A stretch of DNA of 64,000 nucleotides from positions 372,001 through 436,000 of the forward strand of contig NC_086373.1 of the NCBI RefSeq assembly GCF_036588685.1. Reading direction: 5' to 3'. Positions within the stretch are counted from its first letter, which is position 1. Every line of letters begins with the position of its first letter. A program made the translations under genes and the position numbers. This DNA comes from Mytilus trossulus (lineage: Eukaryota). The notes beneath the pieces are model-generated. The model worked only from the letters and a program-made list of their open reading frames with translations. It was not told where the DNA came from and searched no databases. This document shows, in pieces, positions 5,050 through 50,285 of the stretch.

Positions 5050-5291
5050 GACATGACTTATCATTGATATGGTCATGACTATAACTTTTTATTAAACTTT
5101 GAATTCTTCGAAATACTGAGGATTTTTCTAGTTCAGAAAACATTCCATTAGCTGTATAACAAAAAAAAAATGTGTTTTTAAACGAATGCTCCCCAACCTC
5201 TTTTTTTCTTCTTCGAGCGACACTGGTGAGTCTTTTGGAGACAAAACAAGCGTCTGGCGTACACAATTGTAAGCCTGGAATGTTTGATGAG

Positions 5292-11170: not shown

Positions 11171-11181
11171 TGAAAGGTAAT

Positions 11182-12447
11182 GATAAGTTGATTTCAAGGA
11201 TGGTGGAGAAGAAATTAAGATTTTCCAACTCCTACTGGTTTATACTGATAAGTTGATGTCAATGATAGCGGAGAAAAATTAAGATTTTCCAACTCCTACT
11301 GGTTTATACTGATAAGTTGATGTCAATGATAGCGGAGAAAAATTAAGATTTTCCAACTCCTACTTGTTTATACTGATAAGTTGATGTCAATGATAGCGGA
11401 GAAAAATTAAGATTTTCCAACTCCTACTTGTTTATACTGATAAGTTGATGTCAATGATAGCGGAGAAAAATTAAGATTTTCCAACTCCTACTGGTTTATA
11501 CTGATAAGTTGATGTCAATGATAGCGGAGAAAAATTAAGATTTTCCAACTCCTACTTGTTTATACTGATAAGTTGATGTCAATGATAGCGGAGAAAAATT
11601 AAGATTTTCCAACTCCTACTTGTATGTATTGATAAGTTGATTTCAAGGATATCGGAGACGAAATTAAGATTTTCCAACTCCTACTGGTTTATATTGATAA
11701 GTTGATTTGAAGGATAGCGGAGAAGGAATTAAGATTTTCCAACTCCTACTTGTATATATTTATAAGTTGAGGTCAATGATAGCGGAGAAGGAATTAAGAT
11801 TTTCCAACTCCTACTGGTTTATATTGATAAGTTGATTTCAAGGATAGCGGAGACGAAAATAAGATTTTCCAACTCCTACTGGTTTATATTTATAAGAGGA
11901 TTAAATGATAGCGGAGAAGAAATTAAGATTTTCCAATTCCTACTGGTTTATATTGATAAGTTGATGTCAATGATAGCGGAGAAAAATTTAGATTTTCCAA
12001 CTCCTACCTGTATATTTTGATAAGTTGATTTCAAGGATATCGGAGACGAAATTAAGATTTTCCAACTCCTACTGGTTTATGTTGATAAGTTGATTTCAAG
12101 GATAGCGGAGAGGGAATTCAGATTTTCCAACTCTTACTTGTTTATATTTATAAGTTGATGTCAATGATAGCGGAAAAGGAATTCAGATTTTCCAACTCCT
12201 ACTGGTTTATATTGATAGGTGATTTCAAGGATAGCGGAGACGAAATTAAGATTTCCCAACTCCTACTGGTTTACATTGATAAGTTGATTTCAATGATAGC
12301 GGAGAAGAAATTAAGATTTTCCAATTCCTACTGTCAATGATGGCGGAGGAGAAAATACGATTTCAAACTCCTACTGGTTTATATTGATAATATGTCAATG
12401 ATAGCGGAGAAGGAATTAAGATTTTCCAACTCCTACTGGTTTATACT
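11182..12447. repeat. 64-bp minisatellite, ~20 copies
   Basis: Unit gataagttgatgtcaatgatagcggagaaaaattaagattttccaactcctactggtttatact starts at 11247, 11311, 11375 and so on. A partial unit resumes at ~12596-12628 after an inserted repeat. Confidence 0.95.
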
Positions 12448-16100: not shown

Positions 16101-17590
16101 ATACAACGTAGTGTATTTAAGAAAACATCAAAATATGCAGAAACCTTTGTATACAATTGAAAATGGAAATAGGATATGTGTCAAAGAGACAACAACCCGA
16201 TCATAGAGTAGATAACAACCGAAGGCCACCAATGGGTCTTCAATGCAGCGAAAAACTGCCGCACCCGGAGTCATCCCACAGCTGGTCCCTAAACAAATAT
16301 GTATCATATATGTTATGATGGTATGATACTAAACCCCTAACGGGAAGGATTGTGCCTGATATTCATATGATGAAATCATAATCTTTCAATTAGTTTAATT
16401 GAAGTCTGGAGCTGGCATGTCAGTTAACTGCTAGTAGTCTGTTGTTATTTATGTATTATTGTCATTTTGTTTATTTTCTTTGGTTACATCTTCTGACATC
16501 AGACTCGGACTTCTCTTGAATTGAATTTTAAATGTGCGTATTGTTATGCATTTACTTTTCTACATTGGTTAGAGGTATAGGGAAGGGTTGAGATCTCATA
16601 AACATGTTTAACCTCGCCACATTTTTGCGCCTGTCCCAAGTCAGGAGCCTCTGGCCTTTGTTAGTCTTGTATTTTTTATTTTTTATTTTAGTTTCTTGTG
16701 TACAATTTGGAAATTAGTATGGCGTTCATTATCACTGAACTAGTATATATTTGTCTAGGGCCCAGCTGAAGGACGCTTCCGGGTGCGGGAATTTCTCGCT
16801 ACATTGAAGACCTGTTGGTGACCTTCTGCTGTTGTTTTTTTGTTTCTATGGTCAGGTTGTTGTCTCTTTGACACATTCTCCATTTCAATTCTTAATTTTA
16901 TACTTAGCTAGTGATAATGAAAGTCATACAAACTGAACTCCGAGTACTACACAAGAAACTAGAATTAAAAATCAAACAAGACTAACAAATGTCAGAGCCT
17001 CCTGACTTGCGACAAGCGCAAAAATGCGGCGGCGTTAAACATGTTTTTTGAGATCTCAACTCTGTCCCTTTACCTCTAACCAATGTAGAACAACAATTGC
17101 ACAAATAAACGTACAGTAAAGTTTTTGGTGGAGTTCGTGTTGTTTTTTCTTTAGTTTTCTATGTTGTGTCATGTGTACTTTTGTTTGTCTGTTTGTCTTT
17201 TTTATTTTTAGCTGTGGCGTTGTCAGTTTATTTTCTATTTATGAGTTTGACTGTCCCTTCGGTATCTTTCGTTACTCTTTTAATGATGAGTGTGACAAAG
17301 TTTAGTTAAATTTGGCTGAGTAGTTTCAGGAGAAGACATTTTTAAATGATTAAAAAAAATAAATGTCAAAAAGTTGTCAAACATTGAATATGAAGGGCAA
17401 TAACTCCTAGCGGGTTAATCGACCATTTTAGTCATGGTGACTTATTTGTAGATCTTACTTCGCTGAACAAATTTCCTGTTAACAGTTTATCTCTATCTAT
17501 TATTATATTCAAGATAATAACCAAAAATGCAAAATTTCCTTAACCAAATTACGAATTTAGGGGCAGCAACCCAACATTTCATGTCGACAT

Positions 17591-17975
17591 GAAAAATTGG
17601 TACCGTTAATGTTACTACTACTACTGAGTCGATGCATCTACTGGCGGACTGTTAGTCCCCGAGGATATCACCAGTCTAGTAGCCAGTACTTCGGTACTGG
17701 CAAGCAAATACGGACTTGTTTTGTGTTATTAAAATTTGCTGTTACAAAAAGTTCGAAATTATTTTAAATTTAGGAATGTATCTCCTTCATGCAAAGCTCT
17801 GATTCCTTTCACGGATTTAGCTGTACGTTTTTGGACCTTTTGTATTATAGCTCTTCATTTGTTATATAATCTTGGAATTTCAAATATTTAGGCCACGACC
17901 ATCACTGAAGAGACATGTTTTGTCGAAATGCGCATCTGGTGCAGGAAAATTGGTACCGTTAATGTTATTATCATT
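17591..17975 (+). mobile_element. Family-B retrozyme-like element, one ~353-nt unit with terminal redundancy
   Basis: aaattggtaccgttaatgtta is repeated 353 nt apart (ggtacc at 17599 and 17952). Contains an intact hammerhead motif. Confidence 0.75.
17900..17941 (+). ncRNA. Minimal type I hammerhead ribozyme (family B), predicted cleavage after AUC at 17936
   Basis: CATCA-CTGAAGA-GAC ATGTTTT GTC-GAAA-TGCGCA-TC-TGGTG: CUGANGA and GAAA core present, helices I, II and III pairable. Confidence 0.8.
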
Positions 17976-18380
17976 TATATTGTCAAGATTACCATTAACT
18001 TTTACCAAAACTATGAATATTCGAAATACTATGATTGTTACAACAGGAATAGATTATAATAGGTGAATTTGGCAAAACATTAAAATTCTGTTAATGTCTT
18101 CAGTCTTTTCCTTTTTTCCTTTTTTTTTTTATGTTTTTCGAGCATCACCGCGAGTCTTAAGTAGAGGAAAATCACATCGTGCGTACAAAAATTAAGCCTT
18201 ATATCTTTTATGAGTTTTTATTTTATTAATAAACATATAAATCAAACATACATATAACGTACGCAAACATAACGAATTTATTGATTTTTGTAATTTAAAA
18301 CCAGAACATAAATAAAACAAACTATCACACATTTCTTTACATTCGTGTTTTCAAAGCGTTATTTGTCTTAATACACAGAA

Positions 18381-18667
18381 TCAAACACATTTATATTTAA
18401 CTTCTAAATATTTGTAGGTTCCACTGCAGGGATCACCAAACTGTCTATGGTCAGCTTTTACTCGACATATTCTTTTACCATTGCACATTGCTTTTACTTT
18501 ATAGTCAGAAGTCGATGACCTGCAATCCGTTGTATGTATAGCAGGATGAGGGCATATGCTTCTATCAGTGGTCCGTCCATATATTGCACTGGAGACTTTA
18601 ATCTTAGAAGGATATGGACATTTTATGTATGCTAGTTTATCTTCACAAACAATGACATCGGCAGAGA
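18381..18667 (-). CDS. Secreted SUEL-type (D-galactoside/L-rhamnose-binding) lectin, coding exon 2
   Basis: VCED...IKC...KIKVSSAIYGRT...ICP...DC...CNGKRICRVKA...FGDPCSGTYKYLEVKYKC* has the 8-Cys SUEL pattern with YGR, DPC and KYL motifs. Acceptor ttacag at 18668; phase 1 joins exon 1. Confidence 0.92.
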
Positions 18668-18789
18668 CTGTAATATAAAAAAATACATTCATCATATTGC
18701 AATGGCATAATGATTATTAGTGGTATATCTTCGATGCCGTCGTTTACATAAGAAGAAATAAAATCAATCAATATCTAAGAAAAGTTATC

Positions 18790-20388: not shown

Positions 20389-20710
20389 TGTCCCCGAGGG
20401 TATCACCAGCCCAGTAGTCAGCACTTCGGTGTTGACATGAATATCAAAAATGTGGTCATTTTTATAAGTTTCCTGTTTACAAAACTTTGAATTTTACGAA
20501 AAACTAAGGATTTTCTTATCCCAGACATAGATTAACTTAGCCGTATTTGGCAGAACTTTTTGGACTTTTGGATCCTAAATGCTCTTCAACTTTGTACGTG
20601 TTTGCCTTTATAAATATTTTGATATGAGCGTCACTGATGAGTCTTATGTAGACGAAACGCGCGTCTGGCGTACTAAATTATTATCCTGGTACCTTTGATA
20701 ACTATTTACA
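20389..20710 (+). mobile_element. Family-A retrozyme-like element (5'-truncated monomer)
   Basis: Colinear with ~58890-59195; carries an intact hammerhead. Confidence 0.8.
20628..20671 (+). ncRNA. Minimal type I hammerhead ribozyme (family A), predicted cleavage after GUC at 20665
   Basis: GCGTCA-CTGATGA-GTC TTATGTA GAC-GAAA-CGCGCG-TC-TGGCGT. Confidence 0.85.
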
Positions 20711-29043: not shown

Positions 29044-30692
29044 CTAAAATGAAACAAGGTATATAAACAATATAAGTTAATTGTCAGAAAAATATCAACT
29101 TGTTTGTATGAGGCTGAGAAACTGGGGATGGGCAAGATTCTACCGAGCCCTTCCCCAGTTTTTCGCCGAGTACCAAAAAATGGATGTTTTTCTGACATTG
29201 ACCTAATATTGTTTTATACTGCAACTTAAATAAATAGATTGATAGCTTTCGAAATTGTAACACAGATTACAAACTTATTTTCATCTCTTAATGAACCCTT
29301 GACTGTTGAAAAGTGTTCTATGATGAAATTTACATTGTACAAAACATAGCTGTGATACTATATTAATGAAAATAAACACAACTATTACAGTATAAATACA
29401 ATTCTACTTTGGTTTACCTGTTACCAGAATTCTTTAAGCACTATGAAATTGTGAAAACCTTTGCAAATTGATTTAATTCATTAAAATCTCTTTAAAGATG
29501 ACAGTTAGGCGTATAACTCGGTACACTCACCAGTAGCGCTCAATTTAAAATAGTTGGAATCAAAAACAGAATTAAGAGCATTAAAAAATAAAAATATAAA
29601 CGGTTGTGTTCCAAACAACAAAGACAGTATTTGCCAAGAGGAAGACTCACTTTAGTTTTTGAAACATTCATTAGACACATTAATTTCAATACAAGGCCAT
29701 ACAATACATACCAGACATACCGGATATAACTAACTTATAAGTGTCTGATAAGTAAATATCAATTAATAATGACCAACATGAATTTATCGTTCTGTTTAAA
29801 AAAAAAAAAAAAATGAATTGTTTTACAAATCGTTTTGGGGACTTTTATAAGTTGTCTACAGTTGTTAATTTCTGTGTCATGTTGGTCTCCTGTGGAGAGT
29901 TGTCTCACTGGCCTTCATACCACATATTCTTTTTGATATTATCTACCTGTGACAATAACTAAACGAGAAAAAACATATTTAAAAAAGCATACAGACGACA
30001 ACAAAAAATTAAACAAATATAGTTCTACATTCTGTCGTTAGTTATACTTTAACAGTGGGCTGTATCAAGTTTTCCTTGCATTGCTTATGTCGCCATTTTG
30101 CTAAATTCGTTTTTTATGTGTACTGGTTGATATTTTGGTCCTCGGAAGCATTGGTCATTTGTAATTGGGCTTTAAACAGACTTTTAGTGTGATTACCCTA
30201 AAAAGATCGTACTAGTAACTGTATATATATATATATTGTATTATTGTTTTATTTTATTTTCTATTGTGCTTTATACAGATCTGCTGAATCAGTCCTTTTC
30301 CGACGTGTTTCATTTTGTTCTGATGATATGCTTTCACTATTCCAGATGTATAATGTAATTTGATAGATAAAGTACATGTATTTGGCGAATACATTTTCTA
30401 AACTTTGATTATAACAATTACTGTTGATTTCGATCACTGTTTTAAGAAACGCAGGCATAGCCACAAGCGCAATGACTTCAAAAAGTATAGTCATCTTGTC
30501 GCAAAGGAAAAAAACAGATTTTTTAAAATTACAATCGAGGTTTTGACCGTCTGTAAATCGAATAAACATGGTAATATCTTTTAGAGGTAATAAGTTTTCC
30601 TGTTTTAAACTAAAATAATGTATAATTACCTTAATCGTACAGTTATTGATACACTTTATTTTATGATGATTTAAAAAATGCCTTCAACTTAC

Positions 30693-31514
30693 CACAAATG
30701 GTGACCAGCAAACAGCAAACACTACAAAAATAACAATTAGCAGAATCATAATATACACATCAATATGTCGTTTGGACCGGGCAGTGTTGCTGCCTCTTCT
30801 AACATTGCTTCGTTTTCCAACAATTAACTTTGCTAAAGCCCAAATATTCAGAGTAGCTGTCATGATCACAAGCAGTAATATGGTGATCGAATAAAAGTAA
30901 GCAAATATTGAACAATCAATAAATGAATCGTAAAAATTAGGGAAACACCAAGATCCCGGAAAATGAACGACATTATGACCGATTCCCATTATAGGAAAAC
31001 AGGAAACAAACGCTGAGAAAAGTAGAATTCCTGCTATAACAAATTTGACTAGTCTGTCTTTCGGTATTGTTCTATACTTGATTGGATGAACAATAGCAAC
31101 ATATCTATCAAGCGCCATTGCTGCTATAATCAAACACGTACACATACTACTGAATATCAACATGAACGAGAAGAAATGACATAGTCCTTTCCCGCCAACC
31201 CAGTTCATCTCATTGGTATATACAGCTATTACAATCGGTGATAAAAACAAAATTCCTGTTAGGTCAACGATGGATAATGTGGTTATCATCTTGTAAAACA
31301 CTTTCCATTTATGTATGTGTGCTGATTTCACTAAAATAATCAAAGCGAGTAAGTTCCCAAATACGCCAAGAGACAATCCGATTATGGAAAAGATTGGCTC
31401 GGAGTCAGCTGGTAGAGATTTTGATGTGTTCGTAGCATTATCGTGGTCTCGTAGTTTGTATAGAATATCTAAAAATAAGAACCCTTTCTTAGTCAAATTT
31501 CTAATTCCGGACAT
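30693..31514 (-). CDS. Prostanoid receptor (EP4-like class A GPCR), coding exon 1: TM1-TM6
   Basis: GVFGNLLAL, VDLTG, MALDRYVAIVHP, ECL2 HFPGSWCF and CWSPFV|gtaagt phase-0 donor. Spliced protein is about 386 aa. Confidence 0.93.
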
Positions 31515-32284
31515 TTTAGGTAATTCACAAACGAAGAACAGGCCGTAAATGGTCTACTGTTCGAATTTGCGGTGAATTAATGCATATTAAAAGGCTGATA
31601 TTAACAAATTATGCGTTGCTGTTAATTGTGTGTTACATATCTGTTTATAACATCAAATTGGCATTTATAAATCAGTGACAGAATATCTATATGAATCCCC
31701 CAATTATTGAACTATTAATATCAAACATGATGTTTCACCACAATGACCAATATCATACAGACCATGGATAATACTTCCATGTATAGACTGATGCTGACCC
31801 GGAGATATTCATGTCGGAAATTTATCATAGAATAATAAGTGACCGCGTTTTGAAGTATAGAGGAAAATTGTTATGGACTATTAGTTCTTTGATATATATG
31901 TTAGCGGCAATAATTGAAATTAGGCATCGAATTCTTGACAATAAGCTCACGCCTAGGCATGAAGTCTGATGATGAAGATTATCCAACCTATTGCATTGCC
32001 GAACCTCATTCCAGACAATAATTTGAACTTGGGATTGTTGTTGTAGTTTCCAAAAAAATCTACATTCGGTGAAATATCTTTAAAATATGAAGACAAAACA
32101 TATATTACAAAATTTAATACACATTCATTTCAAAGACCTTCAAATGTTCGTATTCAAAGCAGAACTTACTCTTAGTTCTTTGTGGTATTGCAAAATCAAT
32201 GAGTTTTAAACAAGTAATTGTATCTAATAGAAAAGGGGAAATTGATTTGAAAATAATGAAATGGAAATTCTCCTTCACTAATCG

Positions 32285-32820
32285 AGCCAGTTTTTGGATT
32301 ATAGCTCTTCATCTTTTATATAAGCTTTGGATTTCAAATATTTTGGCCACGAGCATCACTGAAGAGACATGTATTATCGAAATGCGCATCTGGTGCAAGA
32401 AAATTGGTACCGTTAGTTTTATTATAGCTGGTCACAAATATAAAATTGTCAGATCATTATTTAGAGATGGCATAGTACCTTTGATAACTATTAACATCAC
32501 TGTTACTGGGTTGATGCCACTGATGGTGGATGGTTCGTCACAGAGAGTATCATCAGCACAGTAGTCAGCACTTCGGTGTTGCCATGAATATCTATTATAT
32601 GGTCATTTTTATAAATTTCCTGTTTTAAAACGTTGAATTTTTCGAAAAACTCAGAATTTTCTTATCTCAGGAATAGATTACCTTAGCCGTATTTGGCACA
32701 ACTTTTTGGAGTTTTAGGTCCTCAATGCTCTTCAACTTTGTACTTGTTTGGCTTAATAACTATTTTGATATGAGCGTCGGTGATGAGTCTTATGAAGGCG
32801 AAACGAGCGTCTGGCGTATT
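32285..32820 (+). mobile_element. Adjacent family-B fragment (hammerhead ~32353-32396) and family-A retrozyme monomer (mutated hammerhead ~32774-32817)
   Basis: gcatcaCTGAAGAgacatgtattatcGAAAtgcgcaTCtggtgc, then gtacctttgataacta...gcgtcgGTGATGAgtcttatgaaggcGAAAcgagcgTCtggcgt. Confidence 0.7.
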
Positions 32821-35336: not shown

Positions 35337-35769
35337 GAGTGGAGTCGTCATTTCAGTAACTGCTAGTAGTCCTATGTTAATTGATGTATAGTTGTCATTT
35401 TGCTTAGTTTCTTTTTTGAAACTGAGTTTTACTATGCGTATTGCTATGTGAAGACCCATCGGTGGCATTCAGCTATTGTCTGCTATACATGGTAAGATTA
35501 TTGTCTCTACGACATATTCCCCGTTTCCATATGTCTTTCATGCTTAATATCAGTACTGTGAAAGTTTATTATGTAAATGTATGTATTCTCTGGTTATGGA
35601 AGTTCAAACAGCGTATGTTATTGTTTTGTTACATGCCTACCTTGAATAAAGCTTTTGATTTGAATTGACTTAACCCCCAAAACAATAAAAACAAAGCCAA
35701 ATAAGATAGACAGCAATCAACGACAACAGTCAGTCCACTAAATTACAGGACCTTGATTTAGGACAGGAA

Positions 35770-38700
35770 CACACAAGATGTGGCAGGGTGATAATGTTTT
35801 TTCTCAATCCTCCCAAGCCTTGGAAGCTGGAGTACAAGCACACATAAAATGTGACAGGGTGATAATGTTTGTTCTCAACCCTCCCCAGTCTAGGCATCTG
35901 AGTAACAGCACACACAAGATGTGACAGAGTGATCATGTTTGTTTTCAACCCTCCCCAGCCTAGGAATCTGGAGTAACAGCACACACAAGATGTGACAGGG
36001 TGATAATGTTTGTTCTCAACCCTCCCCAGCTTAGGAATCTGGAGTAACAGCACATACAAGATGTGACAGTGTGATAATGTTTGTTCTCAACCCTCCCCAT
36101 CCTAGGAATCTGGAGTAACAGCACAAACAAGATGTGACAGGGTGATAATGTTTGTTCTCAACCCTCCCCATCCTAGGAATCTGGAGTAACAGCACAAACA
36201 AGATGTGACAGGGTGATAATGTTTGTTTTTAACCCTCCCCAGCCATGGAATCTGAAGTAACAGCACACACAAGATGTGACAGTGTGATAATATATATAGG
36301 AAGATGTGGTGTGAGTGCCAATGAGACAACTCTCCATCCAAATAACAATTTAAAAAGTAAACCATTATAGGTTTAAGTACGGCCTTCAACACGGAGCTTT
36401 GGCTCACACCGAACTACAAGATAAAGGACCCCAACATTACTAGTGTAAAACCATTCAAACAGGAAAACCAACGGTTTAATCTATATAAACAAAATAATGT
36501 TTGTTTTCAACCCTCCCCAGCCTAGGAATCTAGAGTAACAGCACACACATGATGTGACAGGATGATAATGTTTGTTCTCAACCCTCCCCTGCCTAGGAAG
36601 CTGGAGTAACAGCACAAACACGATGTGACAGGATGATAACGTTTGTTCTCAACCCTCCCCAGCCTAGGAAGCTGGAGTAACAGCACAAACACGATGTGAT
36701 AGGATGATAATGTTTGTTCTCAACCCTCCCCAGCCTAGGAATCTGGAGTAACAGTCTATTATATAACAAGTTCAACTAGTCCCCAGCCTAGGAATCTGGA
36801 GTAACAGCACAAACACGATGTGACAGGATCATAATGTTTGTTCTCAACCCTCCCCAGCCTTGGAATCTGGAGTAACAGCACAAACACGATGTGACAGGAT
36901 GATAATGTTTGTTCTCAACCCTCCCCAGCCTAGGAAGCTGGAGTAACAGCACAAACACGATGTGATAGGATGATAATGTTTGTTCTCAACCCTCCCCAGC
37001 CTAGGAATCTGGAGTAACAGTCTATTATATAACAAGTTCAACTAGTCCCCAGCCTAGGAATCTGGAGTAACAGCACAAACACGATGTGACAGGATCATAA
37101 TGTTTGTTCTCAACCCTCCCCAGCCTTGGAATCTGGAGTCACAGCACAAACACGATGTGACAGGATGATAATGTTTGTTCTTAACCCTCCCCAGCCTTGG
37201 AAGCTGGAGTAACAGCACAAACACGATGTGACAGGATCATAATGTTTGTTCTTAACCCTCCCCAGCCTAGGAATCTAGAGTAACAGCACACACATGATGT
37301 GACAGGATGATAATGTTTGTTCTCAACCCTCCCCAGCCTTGGAATCTGGAGTAACAGCACAAACACGATGTGACAGGATGATAATGTTTGTTCTCAACCC
37401 TCCCCAGCCTAGGAAGCTGGAGTAACAGCACAAACACGATGTGACAGGATGATAATGTTTGTTCTTAACCCTCCCCATCCTTGGAAGCTGGAGTAACAGC
37501 ACAAACACGATGTGACAGGATCATAATGTTTGTTCTCAACCCTCCCCAGCCTTGGAAGCTGGAGTAACAGCACAAACACGATGTGACAGGATCATAATGT
37601 TTGTTCTCAACCATCCCCAGCCTTGGAATCTGGAGTAACAGCACAAACACGATGTGACAGGATGAAAATGTTTGTTTTCAACCCTCCCCAGCCTTGGAAG
37701 CTGGAGTAACAGCACAAACACGATGTGACAGGATCATAATGTTTGTTCTCAACCATCCCCAGCCTTGGAATCTGGAGTAACAGCACAAACACGATGTGAC
37801 AGGATGAAAATGTTTGTTTTCAACCCTCCCCAGCCTTGGAATCTAGAGTAACAGCACAAACACGATGTGACAGGATGATAATGTTTGTTTTCAACCCTCC
37901 CCAGCCTTGGAATCTGGAGTAACAGCACAAACACGATGTGACAGGATGATAATGTTTGTTCTTAACCCTCCCCAGCCTTGGAAGCTGGAGTAACAGCACA
38001 CACAAGATGTGACAGGATCATAATGTTTGTTCTTAACCCTCTCCAGCCTTGGAAGCTGGAGTAACAGCACAAACACGATGTGACAGGATGATAATGTTTG
38101 TTCTTAACCCTCCCCAGCCTAGGAAGCTGGAGTAACAGCACAAACACGATGTGACAGGATCATAATGTATGTTCTCAACCCTCCCCAGCCTTGGAAGCTG
38201 GAGTAACAGCACAAACACGATGTGACAGGATGATAATGTTTGTTCTTAACCCTCCCCAGCCTTGGAAGCTGGAGTAACAGCACAAACACGATGTGACAGG
38301 ATGATAATGTTTGTTCTCAACCCTCCCCAGCCTTGGAAGCTGGAGTAACAGCACAAACACGATGTGACAGGATGATAATGTTTGTTCTCAACCCTCCCCA
38401 GCCTTGGAATCTGGAGTAACAGCACAAACACGATGTGACAGGATGATAATGTTTGTTCTCAACCCTCCCCAGCCTTGGAAGCTGGAGTAACAGCACAAAC
38501 ACGATGTGACAGGATGATAATGTTTGTTCTTAACCCTCCCCAGTCTAGGAAGCTGGAGTAACAGCACAAACACGATGTGACAGGATGATAATGTTTGTTC
38601 TTAACCCTCCCCAGCCTTGGAATCTGGAGTAACAGCACAAACACGATGTGACAGGATGAAAATGTTTGTTCTCAACCCTCCCCAGCCTTGGAAGCTGGAG

Positions 38701-41700
38701 AAACAGCACAAACACGATGTGACAGGATGATAATGTTTGTTCTCAACCCTCCCCAGCCTAGGAATCTGGAGTAACAGCACAAACACGATGTGACAGGATG
38801 ATAATGTTTGTTCTCAACCCTCCCCAGCCTTGGAAGCTGGAGTAACAGCACACACAAGATGTGACAGGATGATAATGTTTGTTCTCAACTCTCCCCAGCC
38901 TTGGAAGCTGGAGTAACAGCACAAACACGATGTGACAGGATGATAATATTTGTTTTAAATCCTCCCCAGTCTAGGAATCTGGAGTCACAGCACAAACACG
39001 ATGTGACAGGATGATAATGTTTGTTTTCAACCCTCCCCAGCCTTGGAATCTGGAGTAACAGCACAAACACGATGTGACAGGATCATAATGTTTGTTCTTA
39101 ACCCTCCCCAGCCTTGGAAGCTGGAGTAACAGCACAAACACGATGTGACAGGATCATAATGTTTGTTCTCAACCCTCCCCAGCCTAGGAAGCTGGAGTCA
39201 CAGCACAAACACGGTGTGACAGGATGATAATGTTTGTTCTTAACCCTCCCCAGCCTTGGAATCTGGAGTAACAGCACAAACACGATGTGACAGGATCATA
39301 ATGTTTGTTCTCAACACTCCCCAGCCTAGGAAGCTGGAGTAACAGCACAAACACGATGTGACAGGATCATAATGTTTGTTTTCAACCATCCCCAGCCTTG
39401 GAATCTGGAGTAACAGCACAAACACGATGTGACAGGATGATAATGTTTGTTCTCAACCCTCCCCAGCCTTGGAAGCTGGAGTAACAGCACAAACACGATG
39501 TGACAGGATGATAATGTTTGTTCTCAACCCTCCCCAGCCTTGGAAGCTGGAGTAACAGCACAAACACGATGTGACAGGATGATAATGTTTGTTCTCAACC
39601 CTCCCCAGTCTAGGAAGCTGGAGTAACAGCACAAACACGATGTGAAAGGATGATAATGTTTGTTCTCAACCCTCCCCAGCCTTGGAAGCTGGAGTAACAG
39701 CACAAACACGATGTGAAAGGATGATAATGTTTGTTCTCAACCCTCCCCAGTCTAGGAAGCTGGAGTAACAGCACAAACACGATGTGACAGGATGATAATG
39801 TTTGTTCTTAACCCTCCCCAGCCTTGGAAGCTGGAGTAACGGCACAAACACGATGTGACAGGATGATAATGTTTGTTCTCAACACTCCCCAGCCTTGGAA
39901 TCTGGAGTAACAGCACAAACACGATGTGACAGGATGATAATGTTTGTTCTCAACCCTCCCCAGCCTTGGAAGCTGGAGTAACAGCACAAACACGATGTGA
40001 CAGGATGATAATGTTTGTTCTCAACCCTCCCCAGCCTAGGAAGCTGGAGTAACAGCACACACAAGATGTGACAGGATGATAATGTTTGTTCTCAACTCTC
40101 CCCAGCCTTGGAAGCTGGAGTAACAGCACAAACACGATGTGACAGGATGATAATATTTGTTTTAAATCCTCCCCAGCCTAGGAATCTGGAGTCACAACAC
40201 AAACACGATGTGACAGGATGATAATGTTTGTTTTCAACCCTCCCCAGCCTTGGAATCTGGAGTAACAGCACAAACACGATGTGACAGGATCATAATGTTT
40301 GTTCTTAACCCTCCCCAGCCTTGGAAGCTGGAGTAACAGCACAAACACGATGTGACAGGATCATAATGTTTGTTCTCAACCCTCCCCAGCCTAGGAAGCT
40401 GGAGTCACAGCACAAACACGGTGTGACAGGATGATAATGTTTGTTCTTAACCCTCCCCAGCCTTGGAATCTGGAGTAACAGCACAAACACGATGTGACAG
40501 GATCATAATGTTTGTTCTCAACACTCCCCAGCCTAGGAAGCTGGAGTAACAGCACAAACACGATGTGACAGGATCATAATGTTTGTTTTCAACCATCCCC
40601 AGCCTTGGAATCTGGAGTAACAGCACACACAAGATGTGACAGGGTGATAATGTTTGTTCTCAACCCTCCCCAGCCTAGGAAGCTGGAGTCACAGCACAAA
40701 TACGATGTGACAGGATGATAATGTTTGTTCTTAACCCTCCCCAGCCTTGGAATCTGGAGTAACAGCACAAACACGATGTGACAGGATGATAATGTTTGTT
40801 CTCAACACTCCCCAGCCTAGGAAGCTGGAGTAACAGCACAAACACGATGTGACAGGATCATAATGTTTGTTCTCAATCATCCCCAGCCTTGGAATCTGGA
40901 GTAACAGCACAAACACGATGTGACAGGATCATAATGTTTGTTCTCAACCCTCCCCAGCCTAGGAAGCTGGAGTCACAGCACAAATACGATGTGACAGGAT
41001 GATAATGTTTGTTCTTAACCCTCCCCAGCCTTGGAATCTGGAGTAACAGCACAAACACGATGAGACAGGATGATAATGTTTGTTCTTAACCCTCCCCAGC
41101 CTAGGAATCTGGAGTAACAGCACAAACACGATGTGACAGGATCATAATGTTTGTTCTCAACCCTCCCCAGCCTTGGAAGCTGGAGTAACAGCACAAACAC
41201 GATGTGACAGGATGATAATGTTTGTTCTCAACCCTCCCCAGCCTTGGAAGCTGGAGTAACAGCACAAACACGATGTGACAGGATCATAATGTTTGTTCTC
41301 AACCCTCTCCAGCCTACGAATCTGGAGTAACAGCACAAACACGATGTGACAGGATGATAATGTTTGTTCTTAACCCTCCCCAGCCTAGGAATCTGGAGTA
41401 ACAGCACAAACATGATGTGACAGGATGATAATGTTTGTTCTCAACCCTCCCCAGCCTTGTAAGCTGGAGTAACAGCACAAACACGATGTGACAGGATGAA
41501 AATGTTTGTTCTCAACCCTGCCCAGCCTTGGAAGCTGGAGTAACAGCACAAACACGATGTGACAGGATGATAATGTTTGTTCTCAACCCTCCCCAGCCTT
41601 GGAAGCTGGAGTAACAGCACAAACACGATGTGACAGGATGATAATGTTTGTTTTCAACCCTCCCCAGCCTTGGAATCTGGAGTAACAGCACAAACACGAT

Positions 41701-44700
41701 GTGACAGGATCATAATGTTTGTTCTCAACCCTCCCCAGCCTAGGAAGCTGGAGTCACAGCACAAACACGATGTGACAGGATGATAATGTTTGTTCTTAAC
41801 CCTCCCCAGCCTTGGAATCTGGAGTAACAGCACAAACACGATGTGACAGGATCATAATGTTTGTTCCCAACACTCCCCAGCCTAGGAAGCTGGAGTAACA
41901 GCACAAACACGATGTGACAGGATCATAATGTTTGTTTTCAACCATCCCCAGCCTTGGAATCTGGAGTAACAGCACACACAAGATGTGACAGGGTGATAAT
42001 GTTTGTTCTCAACCCTCCCCAGCCTAGGAAGCTGGAGTCACAGCACAAACACGATGTGATAGGATGATAATGTTTGTTCTTAACCCTCCCCAGCCTTGGA
42101 ATCTGGAGTAACAGCACAAACACGATGTGACAGGATCATAATGTTTGTTCTCAACACTCCCCAGCCTAGGAAGCTGGAGTAACAGCACAAACACGATGTG
42201 ACAGGATCATAATGTTTGTTCTCAACCATCCCCAGCCTTGGAATCTGGAGTAACAGCACAAACACGATGTGACAGGATCATAATGTTTGTTCTCAACCCT
42301 CCCCAGCCTAGGAAGCTGGAGTAACGGCACAAACACGATGTGACAGGATGATAATGTTTGTTTTCAACCCTCCCCAGCCTAGGAATCTGGAGTCACAGCA
42401 CAAACACGATGTGACAGGATGATAATGTTTGTTTTCAACCCTTCCCAGCCTAGGAAACTGGAGTAACAGCACAAACACGATGTGACAGGATCATAATGTT
42501 TGTTCTCAACCCTCCCCAGCCTAGGAAGCTGGAGTCACAGCACAAACACGATGTGACAGGATGATAATGTTTGTTTTCAACCCTTCCCAGCCTAGGAAGC
42601 TGGAGTAACAGCACAAACACGATGTGACAGGATGATAATGTTTGTTCTTAACCCTCCCCAGCCTTGGAAGCTGGAGTAACAGCACAAACACGATGTGACA
42701 GGATCATAATATTTGTTCTCAACCATCCCCAGCCTTGGAATCTGGAGTAACAGCAGAAACACGATGTGACAGGATCATAATGTTTGTTCTCAACACTCCC
42801 CAGCCTTGTAAGCTGGAGTAACAGCACACACACGATGTGACAGGATGATAATGTTTGTTCTCAACCCTCCCCAGCCTTGGAAGCTGGAGTAACAGCACAA
42901 ACACGATGTGACAGGATGATAATGTTTGTTCTTAACCCTCCCCAGCCTTGGAAGCTGGAGTAACAGCACAAACACGATGTGACAGGATCATAATGTTTGT
43001 TCTCAACCATCCCCAGCCTTGGAATCTGGAGTAACAGCACAAACACGATGTGACAGGATCATAATGTTTGTTCTCAACACTCCCCAGCCTTGTAAGCTGG
43101 AGTAACAGCACAAACACGATGTGACAGGATGATAATGTTTGTTCTTAACCCTCCCCAGCCTAGGAATCTAGAGTAACAGCACAAACACGATGTGACAGGA
43201 TGATAATGTTTGTTCTCAACCTTCCCCTGCCTAGGAAGCTGGAGTAACAGCACAAACACGATGTGACAGGATGATAATGTTTGTTCTCAACCCTCCCCTG
43301 CCTAGGAAGCTGGAGTAACAGCACAAACACGCTGTGACAGGATGATAATGTTTGTTCTCAACCCTCCCCAGCCTAGGAATCTGGAGTAACAGCACAAACA
43401 CGATGTGACAGGATGATAATGTTTGTTCTCAACCCTCCCCTGCCTTGGAATCTGGAGTCACAACACAAACACGATGTGACAGGATGATAATGTTTGTTCT
43501 TAACCCTCCCCAGCCTTGGAAGCTGGAGTAACAGCACAAACACGATGTGACAGGATGATAATGTTTGTTCTCAACCTTCCCCTGTCTAGGAAGCTGGAGT
43601 AACAGCACAAACACGATGTGACAGGATGATAATGTTTGTTCTCAACCCTCCCCAGCCTAGGAAGCTGGAGTAACAGCACAAACACGATGTGACAGGATGA
43701 TAATGTTTGTTCTCAACCTTCCCCTGCCTAGGAAGCTGGAGTAACAGCACAAACACGATGTGACAGGATGATAATGTTTGTTCTTAACCCTCCCCAGCCT
43801 TGGAAGCTGGAGTAACAGCACAAACACGATGTGACAGGATGATAATGTTTGTTCTCAACCCTCCCCAGCCTAGGAATCTGGAGTAACAGCACAAACACGA
43901 TGTGACAGGATGATAATGTTTGTTCTCAACACTCCCCAGCCTTGGAATCTAGAGTAACAGCACAAACACGATGTGACAGGATGATAATGTTTGTTCTTAA
44001 CCCTCCCCAGCCTTGGAATCTGGAGTAACAGCACAAACACGATGTGACAGGATGATAATGTTTGTTCTTAACCCTCCCCAGCCTAGGAATCTGGAGTAAC
44101 AGCACAAACACGATGTGACAGGATGATAATGTTTGTTCTTAACCCTCCCCAGCCTAGGAATCTGGAGTAACAGCACAAACACGATGTGACAGGATGATAA
44201 TGTTTGTTCTCAACACTCCCCAGCCTTGGAATCTAGAGTAACAGCACAAACACGATGTGACAGGATGATAATGTTTGTTCTTAACCCTCCCCAGCCTTGG
44301 AATCTGGAGTAACAGCACAAACACGATGTGACAGGATGATAATGTTTGTTCTCAACCCTCCCCAGCCTTGGAATCTGGAGTAACAGCACAAACACGATGT
44401 GACAGGATGATAATGTTTGTTCTCAACCCTCCCCTGCCTAGGAATCTGGAGTAACAGCACAAACACGATGTGACAGGATGATAATGTTTGTTTTCAACCC
44501 TTCCCAGCCTTGGAATCTGGAGTAACAGCACAAACACGATGTGACAGGATCATAATATTTGTTCTCAACCATCCCCAGCCTTGGAATCTGGAGTAACAGC
44601 ACAAACACGATGTGACAGGATCATAATGTTTGTTCTCAACACTCCCCAGCCTTGTAAGCTGGAGTAACAGCACACACACGATGTGACAGGATCATAATGT

Positions 44701-47700
44701 TTGTTCTCAACCCTCTCCAGCCTAGGAATCTGGAGTAACAGCACAAACACGATGTGACAGGATGATAATGTTTGTTCTTAACCCTCCCCAGCCTAGGAAT
44801 CTGGAGTAACAGCACAAACATGATGTGACAGGATGATAATGTTTGTTCTCAACCCTCCCCAGCCTTGTAAGCTGGAGTAACAGCACAAACACGATGTGAC
44901 AGGATGAAAATGTTTGTTCTCAACCCTCCCCAGCCTTGGAAGCTGGAGTAACAGCACAAACACGATGTGACAGGATGATAATGTTTGTTCTCAACCCTCC
45001 CCAGCCTTGGAAGCTGGAGTAACAGCACAAACACGATGTGACAGGATAATAATGTTTGTTTTCAACCCTCCCCAGCCTTGGAATCTGGAGTAACAGCACA
45101 AACACGATGTGACAGGATCATAATGTTTGTTCTCAACCCTCCCCAGCCTAGGAAGCTGGAGTCACAGCACAAACACGATGTGACAGGATGATAATGTTTG
45201 TTCTTAACCCTCCCCAGCCTTGGAATCTGGAGTAACAGCACAAACACGATGTGACAGGATCATAATGTTTGTTCCCAACACTCCCCAGCCTAGGAAGCTG
45301 GAGTAACAGCACAAACACGATGTGACAGGATCATAATGTTTGTTTTCAACCATCCCCAGCCTTGGAATCTGGAGTAACAGCACACACAAGATGTGACAGG
45401 GTGATAATGTTTGTTCTCAACCCTCCCCAGCCTAGGAAGCTGGAGTCACAGCACAAACACGATGTGACAGGATGATAATGTTTGTTTTCAACCCTTCCCA
45501 GCCTAGGAATCTGGAGTAACAGCACAAACACGATGTGACAGGATCATAATGTTTGTTCTCAACACTCCCCAGCCTAGGAAGCTGGAGTAACAGCACAAAC
45601 ACGATGTGACAGGATCATAATGTTTGTTCTCAACCATCCCCAGCCTAGGAAGCTGGAGTCACAGCACAAACACGATGTGACAGGATCATAATGTTTGTTC
45701 TCAACACTCCCCAGCCTTGTAAGCTGGAGTAACAGCACACACACGATGTGACAGGATGATAATGTTTGTTCTTAACCCTCCCCAGCCTTGGAAGCTGGAG
45801 TAACAGCACAAACACGATGTGACAGGATGATAATGTTTGTTCTTAACCCTCCCCAGTCTAGGAATCTGGAGTCACAACACAAACACGATGTGACAGGATG
45901 ATAATGTTTGTTCTCAACCCTCCCCAGCCTTGGAAGCTGGAGTAACAGCACAAACACGATGTGACAGGATGATAATGTTTGTTCTTAACCCTCCCCAGTC
46001 TAGGAATCTGGAGTCACAACACAAACACGATGTGACAGGATGATAATGTTTGTTCTCAACCCTCCCCAGCCTTGGAAGCTGGAGTCACAGCACAAACACG
46101 ATGTGACAGGATCATAATGTTTGTTCTCAACACTCCCCAGCCTTGTAAGCTGGAGTAACAGCACACACACGATGTGACAGGATGATAATGTTTGTTCTTA
46201 ACCCTCCCCAGCCTTGGAAGCTGGAGTAACAGCACAAACACGATGTGACAGGATGATAATGTTTGTTCTTAACCCTCCCCAGTCTAGGAAACTGGAGTCA
46301 CAACACAAACACGATGTGACAGGATGATAATGTTTGTTTTCAACCCTCCCCAGCCTTGTAAGCTGGAGTAACAGCACAAACACGATGTGACAGGATGATA
46401 ATGTTTGTTCTTAACCCTCCCCAGCCTAGGAATCTGGAGTAACAGCACAAACACGATGTGACAGGATGATAATGTTTGTTCTTAACCCTCCCCAGCCTAG
46501 GAATCTGGAGTAACAGCACAAACACGATGTGACAGGATGATAATGTTTGTTCTCAACCCTCCCCAGCCTAGGAAGCTGGAGTAACAGCACAAACACGATG
46601 TGACAGGATGATAATGTTTGTTCTTAACCCTCCCCAGCCTTGGAATCTGGAGTAACAGCACAAACACGATGTGACAGGATGATAATGTTTGTTCTCAACC
46701 CTCCCCTGCCTAGGAAGCTGGAGTAACAGCACAAACACGCTGTGACAGGATGATAATGTTTGTTCTCAACCCTCCCCAGCCTAGGAAGCTGGAGTAACAG
46801 CACAAACACGATGTGACAGGATGATAATGTTTGTTCTCAACCCTCCCCAGCCTAGGAATCTGGAGTAACAGCACAAACACGATGTGACAGGATCATAATG
46901 TTTGTTCTCAACACTCCCCAGCCTTGTAAGCTGGAGTAACAGCACACACACGATGTGACAGGATGATAATGTTTGTTCTTAACCCTCCCCAGCCTAGGAA
47001 TCTGGAGTAACAGCACAAACACGATGTGACAGGATCATAATGTTTGTTCTCAACACTCCCCAGCCTTGTAAGCTGGAGTAACAGCACACACACGATGTGA
47101 CAGGATGATAATGTTTGTTCTTAACCGTCCCCAGCCTTGGAAGCTGGAGTAACAGCACAAACACGATGTGACAGGATCATAATGTTTGTTCTCAACCATC
47201 CCCAGCCTTGGAATCTGGAGTAACAGCACAAACACGATGTGACAGGATCATAATGTTTGTTCTCAACACTCCCCAGCCTTGTAAGCTGGAGTAACAGCAC
47301 AAACACGATGTGACAGGATGATAATGTTTGTTCTTAACCCTCCCCAGCCTAGGAATCTGGAGTCACAACACAAACACGATGTGACAGGATGATAATGTTT
47401 GTTCTTAACCCTCCCCAGCCTTGGAATCTGGAGTAACAGCACAAACACGATGTGACAGGATCATAATGTTTGTTCTTAACCATCCCCAGCCTTGGAATCT
47501 GGAGTAACAGCACAAACACGATGTGACAGGATCATAATGTTTGTTCTCAACCATCCCCAGCCTTGGAATCTGGAGTAACAGCACAAACACGATGTGACAG
47601 GATCATAATGTTTGTTCTTAACCCTCCCCAGCCTTGGAATCTGGAGTAACAGCACAAACACGATGTGACAGGATGATAATGTTTGTTCTTAACCCTCCCC

Positions 47701-50285
47701 AGCCTTGGAATCTGGAGTAACAGCACAAACACGATGTGACAGGATGATAATGTTTGTTCTTAACCCTCCCCAGCCTTGGAATCTGGAGTAACAGCACAAA
47801 CACGATGTGACAGGATCATAATGTTTGTTCTCAACCATCCCCAGCCTTGGAATCTGGAGTAACAGCACAAACACGATGTGACAGGATCATAATGTTTGTT
47901 CTTAACCCTCCCCAGCCTTGGAAGCTGGAGTAACAGCACAAACACGATGTGACAGGATCATAATGTTTGTTCTTAACCCTCCCCAGCCTTGGAAGCTGGA
48001 GTAACAGCACAAACACGATATGACAGGATCATAATGTTTGTTCTCAACACTCCCCAGCCTTGGAAGCTGGAGTAACAGCACAAACACGATGTGACAGGAT
48101 CATAATGTTTGTTCTCAACACTCCCCAGCCTTGGAAGCTGGAGTAACAGCACAAACACGATGTGACAGGATGATAATGTTTGTTTTCAACCCTTCCCAGC
48201 CTTGGAATCTGGAGTAACAGCACAAACACGATGTGACAGGATGATAATGTTTGTTCTTAACCCTCCCCAGCCTAGGAATCTGGAGTAACAGCACAAACAC
48301 GATGTGACAGGATCATAATGTTTGTTCTCAACCCTCCCCAGCCTTGGAAGCTGGAGTAACAGCACAAACACGATGTGACAGGATGATAATGTTTGTTCTT
48401 AACCCTCCCCAGCCTTGGAAGCTGGAGTAACAGCACAAACACGATGTGACAGGATCATAATGTTTGTTCTTAACCCTCCCCAGCCTAGGAATCTGGAGTA
48501 ACAGCACAAACACAATGTGACAGGATGATAATGTTTGTTCTTAACCCTCCCCAGCCTTGTAAGCTGGAGTAACAGCACAAACACGATGTGACAGGATGAA
48601 AATGTTTGTTCTCAACCCTCCCCAGCCTTTGAAGCTTGAGTAACAGCACAAACACGATGTGACAGGATCATAATGTTTGTTCTCAACCCTCCCCAGCCTT
48701 GGAAGCTGGAGTAACAGCACAAACACGATGTGACAGGATGATAATGTTTGTTCTCAACCCTCCCCAGCCTTGGAAGCTGGAGTAACAGCACAAACACGAT
48801 GTGACAGGATGATAATGTTTGTTCTCAACCCTCCCCAGCCTTGGAAGCTGGAGTAACAGCACAAACACGATGTGACAGGATGATAATGTTTGTTCTCAAC
48901 CCTCCCCAGCCTTGGAAGCTGGAGTAACAGCACAAACACGATGTGACAGGATGATAATGTTTGTTCTTAACCCTCCCCAGCCTTGGAAGCTGGAGTAACA
49001 GCACAAACACGATGTGACAGGATGATAATGTTTGTTCTTAACCCTCCCCAGCCTTGGAAGCTGGAGTAACAGCACATACACGATGTGACAGGATGATAAT
49101 GTTTGTTCTCAACCTTCCCCTGCCTAGGAAGCTGGAGTAACAGCACAAACACGATGTGACAGGATCATAATGTTTGTTCTCAACCCTCCCCAGCCTTGGA
49201 AGCTGGAGTAACAGCACAAACACGATGTGACAGGATGATAATGTTTGTTCTTAACCTTCCCCTGCCTAGGAAGCTGGAGTAACAGCACAAACACGATGTG
49301 ACAGGATCATAATGTTTGTTCTCAACCCTCCCCAGCCTTGGAAGCTGGAGTAACAGCACAAACACGATGTGACAGGATGATAATGTTTGTTCTCAACCCT
49401 CCCCAGCCTTGGAAGCTGGAGTAACAGCACATACACGATGTGACAGGATGATAATGTTTGTTCTCAACCTTCCCCTGCCTAGGAAGCTGGAGTAACAGCA
49501 CAAACACGATGTGACAGGATGATAATGTTTGTTCTTAACCCTCCCCAGCCTAGGAATCTGGAGTAACAGCACAAACACGATGTGACAGGATCATAATGTT
49601 TGTTCTCAACCCTCCCCAGCCTTGGAATCTGGAGTAACAGCACACACACGTGCACGATGTGACAGGATGATAATGTTTGTTCTTAACCCTCCCCAGCCTT
49701 GGAAGCTGGAGTAACAGCACAAACACGATGTGACAGGATGATAATGTATGTTCTCAACCCTCCCCAGCCTAGGAATCTGGAGTAACAGCACAAACACGAT
49801 GTGACAGGATGATAATGTTTGTTCTCAACCCTCCCCTGCCTTGGAATCTGGAGTAACAGCACAAACACGATGTGACAGGATGATAATGTTTGTTCTCAAC
49901 CCTCCCCAGCCTTGGAAGCTGGAGTAACAGCACAAACACGATGTGACATGATGATAATGTTTGTTCTTAACCCTCCCCAGCCTAGGAAGCTGGAGTAACA
50001 GCACAAACACGATGTGACAGGATGATAATGTTTGTTCTCAACCCTCCCCAGCCTAGGAAGCTGGAGTAACAGCACAAACACGATGTGACAGGATGATAAT
50101 GTTTGTTCTTAACCCTCCCCAGCCTAGGAAGCTGGAGTAACAGCACAAACATGATGTGACAGGATCATAATGTTTGTTCTTAACCCTCCCCAGCCTTGGA
50201 ATCTGGAGTAACAGCACAAACACGATGTGACAGGATGATAATGTTTGTTCTCAACCCTCCCCAGCCTTGGAAGCTGGAGTAACAG
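35770..50285. repeat. 71-bp satellite array, ~200 units
   Basis: Consensus CCCTCCCCAGCCTTGGAAGCTGGAGTAACAGCACAAACACGATGTGACAGGATGATAATGTTTGTTCTCAA. The ORF track repeats at multiples of 71. Confidence 0.98.
36291..36494 (+). mobile_element. Short interspersed element inserted into the satellite
   Basis: Same sequence as the reverse complement of 6750-6958; interrupts a unit at gtgataa|...|taatgtttg. Confidence 0.8.

What the first reader, a model, noticed from the sequence alone, without database searches (positions are those of the whole stretch)
17591..17975. Second retrozyme family whose hammerhead covaries with family A in all three helices
Seen: family A has helix I GCGTCA/TGGCGT, helix II GTC/GAC, and helix III palindrome ACGCGCGT with a GUC triplet. 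Family B (17900 and 32353) has (G)CATCA/TGGTGC, GAC/GTC, and palindrome ATGCGCAT with an AUC triplet; only the variable N of CUGANGA differs in the core. Compensatory changes with a preserved palindrome and similar unit length (353 vs 345) imply selection on catalysis and dimerisation. Inference: the different palindrome ends might favour within-family dimers.
Basis: partly seen in the sequence, partly recalled or inferred. Interest (0 to 1): 0.75.

Follow-up and report, generated by a model that had tools for sequence, protein, structure and literature searches.

The report
Mussel retrozymes with family-specific pairing palindromes
This is a real sister family of a known mussel parasitic RNA repeat (a retrozyme), whose predicted self-cutting hammerhead keeps every base pair while changing its letters; sequencing reads also show a third family with another palindrome, so the three families likely pair and cut best with their own kind, which is untested.

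Summary
Family B is real. It is a 350-353-nt repeat, 72% identical to family A along the whole unit. Family A carries the hammerhead type printed for the Mytilus galloprovincialis retrozyme. Between A and B, four hammerhead pairs change on both sides, one G-U becomes G-C, none breaks, and only N7 changes in the core. Two corrections: the 32353 copy has a helix II mismatch (GAC/ATC), and each window copy holds only one hammerhead. B is high-copy in DNA, transcribed, and occurs as a two-hammerhead tandem (L001). Reads reveal a third family, C, with palindrome ATCCGGAT and an AUA cut site. Its double change falls at positions that close only a 2-nt loop in a monomer, which is the best evidence here for dimer selection. 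Predicted A/A and B/B active dimers are their minimum-energy folds; A/B is 14-16 kcal/mol worse. Cleavage and circularity were not shown. The architecture, dimer model and two mussel ribozyme families are already published, so B may be the published second family (supplement unreadable). New member of a known kind; interest 0.35.

The parts
17593..17970 (+). Family B retrozyme copy: one 353-nt permuted unit plus a 25-nt terminal repeat; one hammerhead
   Evidence: 90.5% identical to L001:835-1208
17593..17617 (+). 5' copy of the terminal direct repeat (element sequence just 3' of the cut site, not a target-site duplication)
   Evidence: 96% identical to 17946-17970; same sequence follows both hammerheads in L001
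17623..17680 (+). Predicted bulged stem-loop, the most conserved part between A and B; B insertions end 5-6 nt before it
   Evidence: z -4.2 in L001, -3.4 in this copy; -2.8 and -0.5 in two A copies, with different folds; 50 of 59 identical A vs B
17682..17701 (+). 8-bp hairpin with UUCG loop; two double changes and one G-U to G-C change between A (20390 copy) and B
17899..17942 (+). Type I hammerhead B: helix I 17899-17904/17937-17942, CUGAAGA 17905-17911, helix II 17912-17915/17921-17924, GAA 17925-17927, palindrome 17928-17935, predicted cut after C17936; private G-to-C change at 17899
17946..17970 (+). 3' terminal repeat and fixed 3' end of B insertions, 33-35 nt past the cut site
   Evidence: 617 contigs of X1 and 529 of X8 leave the element at 17969-17971 into unrelated flanks
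32292..32424 (+). 5'-truncated B copy with the same 3' end; hammerhead 32353-32396 damaged by a helix II C-A mismatch at 32376
   Evidence: active fold +2.5 kcal/mol
58749..59195 (+). Family A reference copy with two hammerheads (58772-58815, 59117-59160), 345 nt apart
20390..20706 (+). Family A copy with an intact hammerhead (20628-20671), used for the A/B comparison

Best explanation
Family B is a high-copy, transcribed sister family of the mussel non-LTR retrozyme, and its hammerhead, kept by compensatory changes, likely cuts the RNA when two copies pair through the 8-nt palindrome. Shown: homology to A, tandem two-hammerhead form, paired family majority, transcription, head-to-tail RNA, fixed 3' insertion end. 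Predicted: the active double hammerhead is the most stable fold for A/A and B/B, while A/B puts one C-A mismatch in each catalytic centre; C's palindrome cannot pair in register with either. Inferred from published work on mussel retrozymes: cutting at two successive hammerheads frees a 350-nt monomer, a host RtcB-type ligase circularises it, and a Penelope-type reverse transcriptase copies the circle or multimer from a fixed point 33-35 nt past the cut site, giving 5'-truncated and slightly-more-than-unit copies. Family specificity is most likely a by-product: each family must keep its own palindrome self-complementary while the letters drift.
For: Whole-unit homology. Four both-sided changes, all pairs standard in intact copies (94.4% of 196 cells paired). 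L001 has two B hammerheads 350 nt apart. 22,270 contigs of X1 lay on the 350-nt unit, 10,653 of them at 95% or better. RNA: 3,504 of 8.7 million and 3,523 of 8.25 million reads laid, A and C reads included; 96 and 50 reads run from the genomic 3' end back into the unit start. Energies: A/A -29.5 and B/B -27.3 kcal/mol, each equal to the cofold minimum; A/B -13.4, which is 9.1 above its minimum; the monomer active fold lies 3.5 (A) and 4.1 (B) above the minimum. Family C: L001:819 G>C and 822 C>G in 247 and 247 reads (X23) and 356 and 353 reads (X24), never alone in a read, also in 62 and 61 DNA contigs of X1. Palindrome duplexes: AA -13.3, BB -10.5, CC -10.9, AB -5.7, BC +0.3, AC +2.7. AUC and AUA are among the best cut triplets (PMC8879150, passages).
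Against: No pile-up of read ends at the cut site in either RNA run. Head-to-tail reads could come from genomic tandems as well as circles. B's strand bias is weak (about 3:1 in X23, about 1.4:1 in X24) against about 6-7:1 for A letters and 10:1 for C letters, so much B RNA may be passive read-through. Four of the five B hammerheads read carry a private change, three of them in a helix or the palindrome. All A/B double changes lie on one branch; the pair-count controls were not significant (415 and 493 of 500 shuffles). A cloned mussel genomic repeat cleaved at about 0.1 per minute, and the abstract ties the need for dimers to vertebrate retrozymes (PMC7229834). Eight of nine Xenopus retrozyme dimers did not cleave in vitro (10.64898/2026.07.22.740005, passage). 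91 and 24 variant rows were hidden.
Confidence: 0.62

Rival explanations
1. B, like A, cuts as a monomer with a 2-bp helix III and a tetraloop; the palindrome is incidental or only assists.
For: The A/B helix III change is a monomer pair. PMC7229834 (abstract, section 14) reports cleavage of a cloned mussel repeat and efficient cleavage in most invertebrate retrozymes. Some tetraloops pair their first and last bases over a 2-nt loop (recalled, no call), which could explain C's double change without a dimer.
Against: The monomer active fold is not the minimum for A or B, and the dimer fold is. All three families keep a perfect 8-nt palindrome; C changed two loop letters together. PMC4209133 states that this helix III impedes monomer cleavage.
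Confidence: 0.22
2. B was selected in the past but is now a dead family; its RNA is read-through of genomic copies inside other transcripts.
For: Weak strand bias, 95 and 97 RNA reads running on from L001:859 into mixed flanks, no cut-site ends; both window copies damaged.
Against: 4,069 contigs of X1 at 99% or better to the L001 unit (short contigs); B-only depth of 431 and 316 past the genomic 3' end against 611 and 475 just before it; sense excess in both runs.
Confidence: 0.1
3. The palindromes diverged under selection to avoid cross-pairing among co-expressed families (a self/non-self code).
For: A, B and C letters occur in the same RNA runs at similar depth, and all cross-pairs are predicted to be poor.
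Against: Pairing in cis between tandem neighbours needs no discrimination; any double change in a palindrome gives incompatibility automatically; only two divergence events were seen.
Confidence: 0.06

Closest known systems
Mytilus galloprovincialis non-LTR retrozyme (PMC7229834: read parts 2 and 4, section 14 and passages; PMC4918200 Additional file 11: read)
   Same: [quoted passage not shown] The printed 375-nt monomer has the A-type hammerhead (ACGCGCGU, GUC) and the same stem-loop region.
   Different: The printed sequence is A-type, with the tail seen in window copies 63848 and 5220. Whether the paper's second family is B or this A sub-type could not be checked: Supplementary Figure S4 was unreadable. 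No B- or C-type sequence and no heterodimer test appeared in the passages read.
Canonical metazoan type I hammerhead and double-hammerhead model (PMC4209133: part 1 and passages; Rfam RF00163)
   Same: Helix I 6 bp, helix II 4 bp, helix III 1-2 bp capped by a palindromic loop; dimer activation in tandem repeats.
   Different: B is below Rfam's gathering score (only the A copy at 59117 passed). AUC and AUA sites instead of GUC; three mutually mismatched palindromes in one lineage.
Dolichopoda pDo500 satellite hammerheads (PMC2837043: passages)
   Same: Compensatory changes in hammerhead stems taken as evidence of constraint; single versus double hammerhead question.
   Different: There the changes were in stems I and II of scattered copies; here they are fixed between families and reach the helix III palindrome.
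Axolotl HHR_Amex1 and HHR_Amex2 retrozymes (10.1101/721605 and PMC7229834: passages)
   Same: Two retrozyme families with different hammerheads in one genome, both more active as dimers.
   Different: Those differ in helix strength; A, B and C keep the same geometry and swap letters.

Membership tests
Type I hammerhead ribozyme (canonical metazoan) | Core CUGANGA, GAAA and NUH cut site | tested here: met
   All 5 of 5 B hammerheads; 4 were found with patterns or by homology that include the core, L001b was not matched by the pattern
Type I hammerhead ribozyme (canonical metazoan) | Helix I 6 bp, II 4 bp, III 1-2 bp with palindromic loop | tested here: met
   Intact in L001a and L002; one private defect each in 17905, 32359 and L001b
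Type I hammerhead ribozyme (canonical metazoan) | Rfam RF00163 gathering score | tested here: not met
   neither window B copy reached it; only 1 of the 9 A hammerheads aligned did, so the threshold is insensitive here
Type I hammerhead ribozyme (canonical metazoan) | Self-cleavage at the NUH site | not testable with these tools
   No read-end pile-up at the site; fragmented libraries and circles would not show one
Metazoan non-LTR retrozyme | Non-coding 150-450-bp low-GC unit with one type I hammerhead per unit | tested here: met
   350-353 nt; no stop-to-stop frame of 110 aa over the 17593 copy; a 90-aa frame crosses L001 and a 148-aa frame crosses 32353, neither with sign of a gene
Metazoan non-LTR retrozyme | Tandem copies with two or more hammerheads | tested here: met
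   L001:736-1208; not met by the two window copies
Metazoan non-LTR retrozyme | Many dispersed genomic copies | tested here: met
   Hundreds of contigs with unrelated flanks at one 3' end
Metazoan non-LTR retrozyme | Expressed as circular RNA | tested here: inconclusive
   Transcribed, sense-biased, head-to-tail reads; genomic tandems give the same reads
Metazoan non-LTR retrozyme | Mobilised by a Penelope-like reverse transcriptase | not tested
   No genome held; fixed 3' ends fit target-primed copying; the Naiad link comes only from earlier scan notes
Published second Mytilus ribozyme family | Sequence matches Supplementary Figure S4 of PMC7229834 | not testable with these tools
   Supplement too large to read

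The most novel reading that the evidence does not exclude
Mussels co-express at least three retrozyme RNA families whose hammerheads carry orthogonal pairing codes (ACGCGCGU, AUGCGCAU, AUCCGGAU). Each cuts only with its own kind, so the palindrome acts as a family identity tag among parasitic circular RNAs. The rare, homogeneous, strongly sense-stranded family C (0.5% of hammerhead depth in one DNA run, 23% and 36% of hammerhead reads in two RNA runs of another species label) is an undescribed, currently active family, possibly amplified at the RNA level.
Probability: 0.25. Interest if true: 0.6.

Novelty: new member of a known kind. Interest (0 to 1): 0.35.

Why it matters
It is still open whether invertebrate retrozyme hammerheads, which lack most loop 1-loop 2 contacts in mussels, cut as monomers or dimers. 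Three natural families with the same geometry and different palindromes give a ready-made swap-and-rescue set for that test. If homodimer specificity holds, they are also natural orthogonal self-cleaving pairs. The element class, the dimer model and the existence of two mussel families are already in print, which limits the surprise.

Tried and rejected
No whole genome is held, so genome-wide alignment and R-scape could not be run. Pattern scans with the helix letters left free found 0 loci in viral contigs, 2 in metagenome contigs (N7 fixed as A) and 0 in prokaryote genomes; family C's full unit was therefore not recovered. A 20-nt family C flank motif is absent from the window at up to 3 mismatches. 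A covariance model of 14 hammerheads found no further intact hammerhead in the window, L001 or L002; only two decayed remnants at 18134 and 7998. A paper search for a 20-nt A hammerhead string gave 0 papers; 'Mytilus' with 'hammerhead ribozyme' gave 5; a heterodimer search listed 15 of 59 papers, none on retrozyme heterodimers by title or abstract start. One paper on dimeric hammerheads was not held. Rejected: B as an independent origin (whole-unit homology); the 25-nt repeat as a target-site duplication (it is element sequence); the L001 1085-to-736 joint as proof of circles (it is only my permutation point); contig depth as copy number. Twenty of the 24 runs listed were candidates by words or labels; I laid 5 (X1, X8, X18, X23, X24) and draw nothing from the rest. 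X1 may be the window's source or species and is not independent support.

Full report
Observation. The window is AT-rich animal DNA with a SUEL lectin exon (18381-18713, minus) and a rhodopsin-family receptor exon (30684-31553, minus). It holds nine A-type and two B-type hammerheads, many damaged. The A hammerhead is of the type printed for the Mytilus galloprovincialis retrozyme (PMC4918200 Additional file 11), so the host is likely a Mytilus-type mussel; I did not determine the species. The B motif at 17899-17942 is as described, except that its outer helix I pair is C-C in this copy. Each window copy has one hammerhead. The 353-nt figure is the spacing of a 25-nt terminal repeat made of element sequence.

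Covariation. An intact B (L001:788-831) differs from an intact A (20628-20671) at 12 of 44 positions. Eight form four double changes (helix I G-C to A-U; helix II U-A to A-U twice; helix III C-G to U-A), one turns G-U into G-C, two lie in loop II and one is N7. Random placement reproduced an intact core with all pairs in 9 of 1,000,000 trials. On 14 copies, 94.4% of 196 cells paired, above all slid controls, but the pair-count controls were not significant and all double changes lie on the single A/B branch. They are independent substitutions, not repeated events.

What B is. B aligns to A over the whole unit (238 of 332 columns), most closely in a predicted stem-loop (50 of 59), and the adjacent UUCG hairpin also covaries. 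A metagenome contig, L001, carries B as a 1.35-mer with two hammerheads 350 nt apart. L001 looks chimeric, but the reads show its unit is close to the family majority: 10,653 of 22,270 laid contigs of X1 are 95% alike or better, and in the hammerhead the only listed variants are in loop II or belong to family C (91 rows hidden). B insertions end at a fixed point 33-35 nt past the cut site, 5-6 nt before the stem-loop: 617 contigs in X1 and 529 in X8. Several A copies in the window end at the matching place. A copy that holds an intact hammerhead plus sequence beyond the cut site needs a circular, multimeric or uncut template (inference).

Expression. Two raw RNA runs of one study (X23, X24; about 6% of each read; a different species label from X1) contain B across its length, with 96 and 50 reads passing from the genomic 3' end back to the unit start. 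There is no pile-up of ends at the cut site. Sense excess is about 3:1 and 1.4:1 for B, lower than for A or C letters, assuming the usual stranded protocol. Genomic tandems exist, so circularity is not shown.

Family C. In both RNA runs about 230 and 320 reads match the B hammerhead only from L001:789 to 830 and continue into other, homogeneous flanks (agreement 0.91-0.97). The same numbers of reads carry 819 G>C and 822 C>G (247 and 247; 356 and 353), and 825 C>A (168; 280, near read ends). No read has one of these changes alone. This gives palindrome ATCCGGAT, an AUA site, and, from the loose ends, an A-U outer pair in helix I. The tool does not phase reads, so the combination is inferred from these counts. 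The letters also occur in 62 and 61 DNA contigs of X1, 0.5% of depth there. Positions 3 and 6 of the palindrome would close a 2-nt loop in a monomer, so their joint change is best read as selection on pairing between two hammerheads. Tetraloops whose end bases pair exist (recalled), so this is strong but not conclusive. C's unit, length and nature were not recovered.

Mechanism. For A/A and B/B the active double hammerhead is the predicted minimum-energy fold (-29.5, -27.3 kcal/mol), whereas monomers prefer inactive folds by 3.5-4.1. A/B carries two C-A mismatches, one per centre, and scores -13.4. C's palindrome has no favourable in-register pairing with A or B. These are nearest-neighbour predictions on isolated motifs, without tertiary contacts, magnesium or proteins. 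The remaining cycle (double cut, RtcB circularisation, Penelope-type copying) is taken from PMC7229834, where ligation was shown in vitro for a mussel monomer and the Penelope step is a proposal. I read specificity as a by-product of drift under a self-complementarity constraint.

Against. A cloned mussel repeat cleaved at about 0.1 per minute and the paper ties dimer dependence to amphibians; intermolecular pairing in that assay is not excluded. Eight of nine predicted Xenopus dimers did not cleave. B may be partly a fossil.

Novelty. The geometry, palindromic loop III and dimer model are in PMC4209133; palindromes with other letters, including an AUC site in Agrilus, are visible in Additional file 11; two mussel ribozyme families are in PMC7229834, whose supplement I could not read and which bears directly on whether B is new. 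I found no heterodimer test or C-type family, which cover only the open library. Earlier scan notes already report two covarying families and the fixed 3' end in this genome; none named ATCCGGAT. Verdict: real, new member of a known kind, interest 0.35, carried mostly by family C and the testable three-way palindrome set.

Noticed in passing
reads laid on L001:789-830 (window 17900-17941): Family C hammerhead (palindrome ATCCGGAT, AUA site) with homogeneous unrelated flanks; 23% and 36% of hammerhead reads in two RNA runs, about 10:1 sense; 0.5% of depth in DNA run X1. Flanks resemble A flanks weakly by eye only.
   Followed up: partly
L001:1-3606: The B tandem (736-1208) and about 700 nt of AT-rich non-coding DNA lie between densely coding stretches that look bacterial by eye (168-aa and 469-aa frames, no Pfam match). 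Most likely a low-coverage chimeric assembly; a real insertion was not tested.
   Followed up: partly
reads laid on L001:860-947: 78 reads of X23 share the stem-loop region and continue into a different homogeneous sequence (agreement 0.88): another element with this stem-loop, possibly family C or an autonomous partner.
   Followed up: no
window 17577-17594: Perfect 18-nt palindrome at the 5' junction of the B copy, where it interrupts another abundant, transcribed repeat (about 17200-17576).
   Followed up: no
window 32292-32817: A truncated B copy is followed 50 nt later by an A copy on the same strand.
   Followed up: no
window 63839-63911 and 5215-5288: A sub-type with a different post-cut tail, like the published 375-nt monomer; the 5215 copy ends in a (TA)n run, the target that PMC8557442 gives for Naiads.
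   Followed up: partly
window 35769-50285: 14.5-kb satellite of 205 copies of a 71-bp unit; also a 64-bp array at 11181-12333 and a 121-bp array at 51172-51495.
   Followed up: no
window 56517-57793: Broken minus-strand frames with an RNase H domain, likely a LINE remnant.
   Followed up: partly
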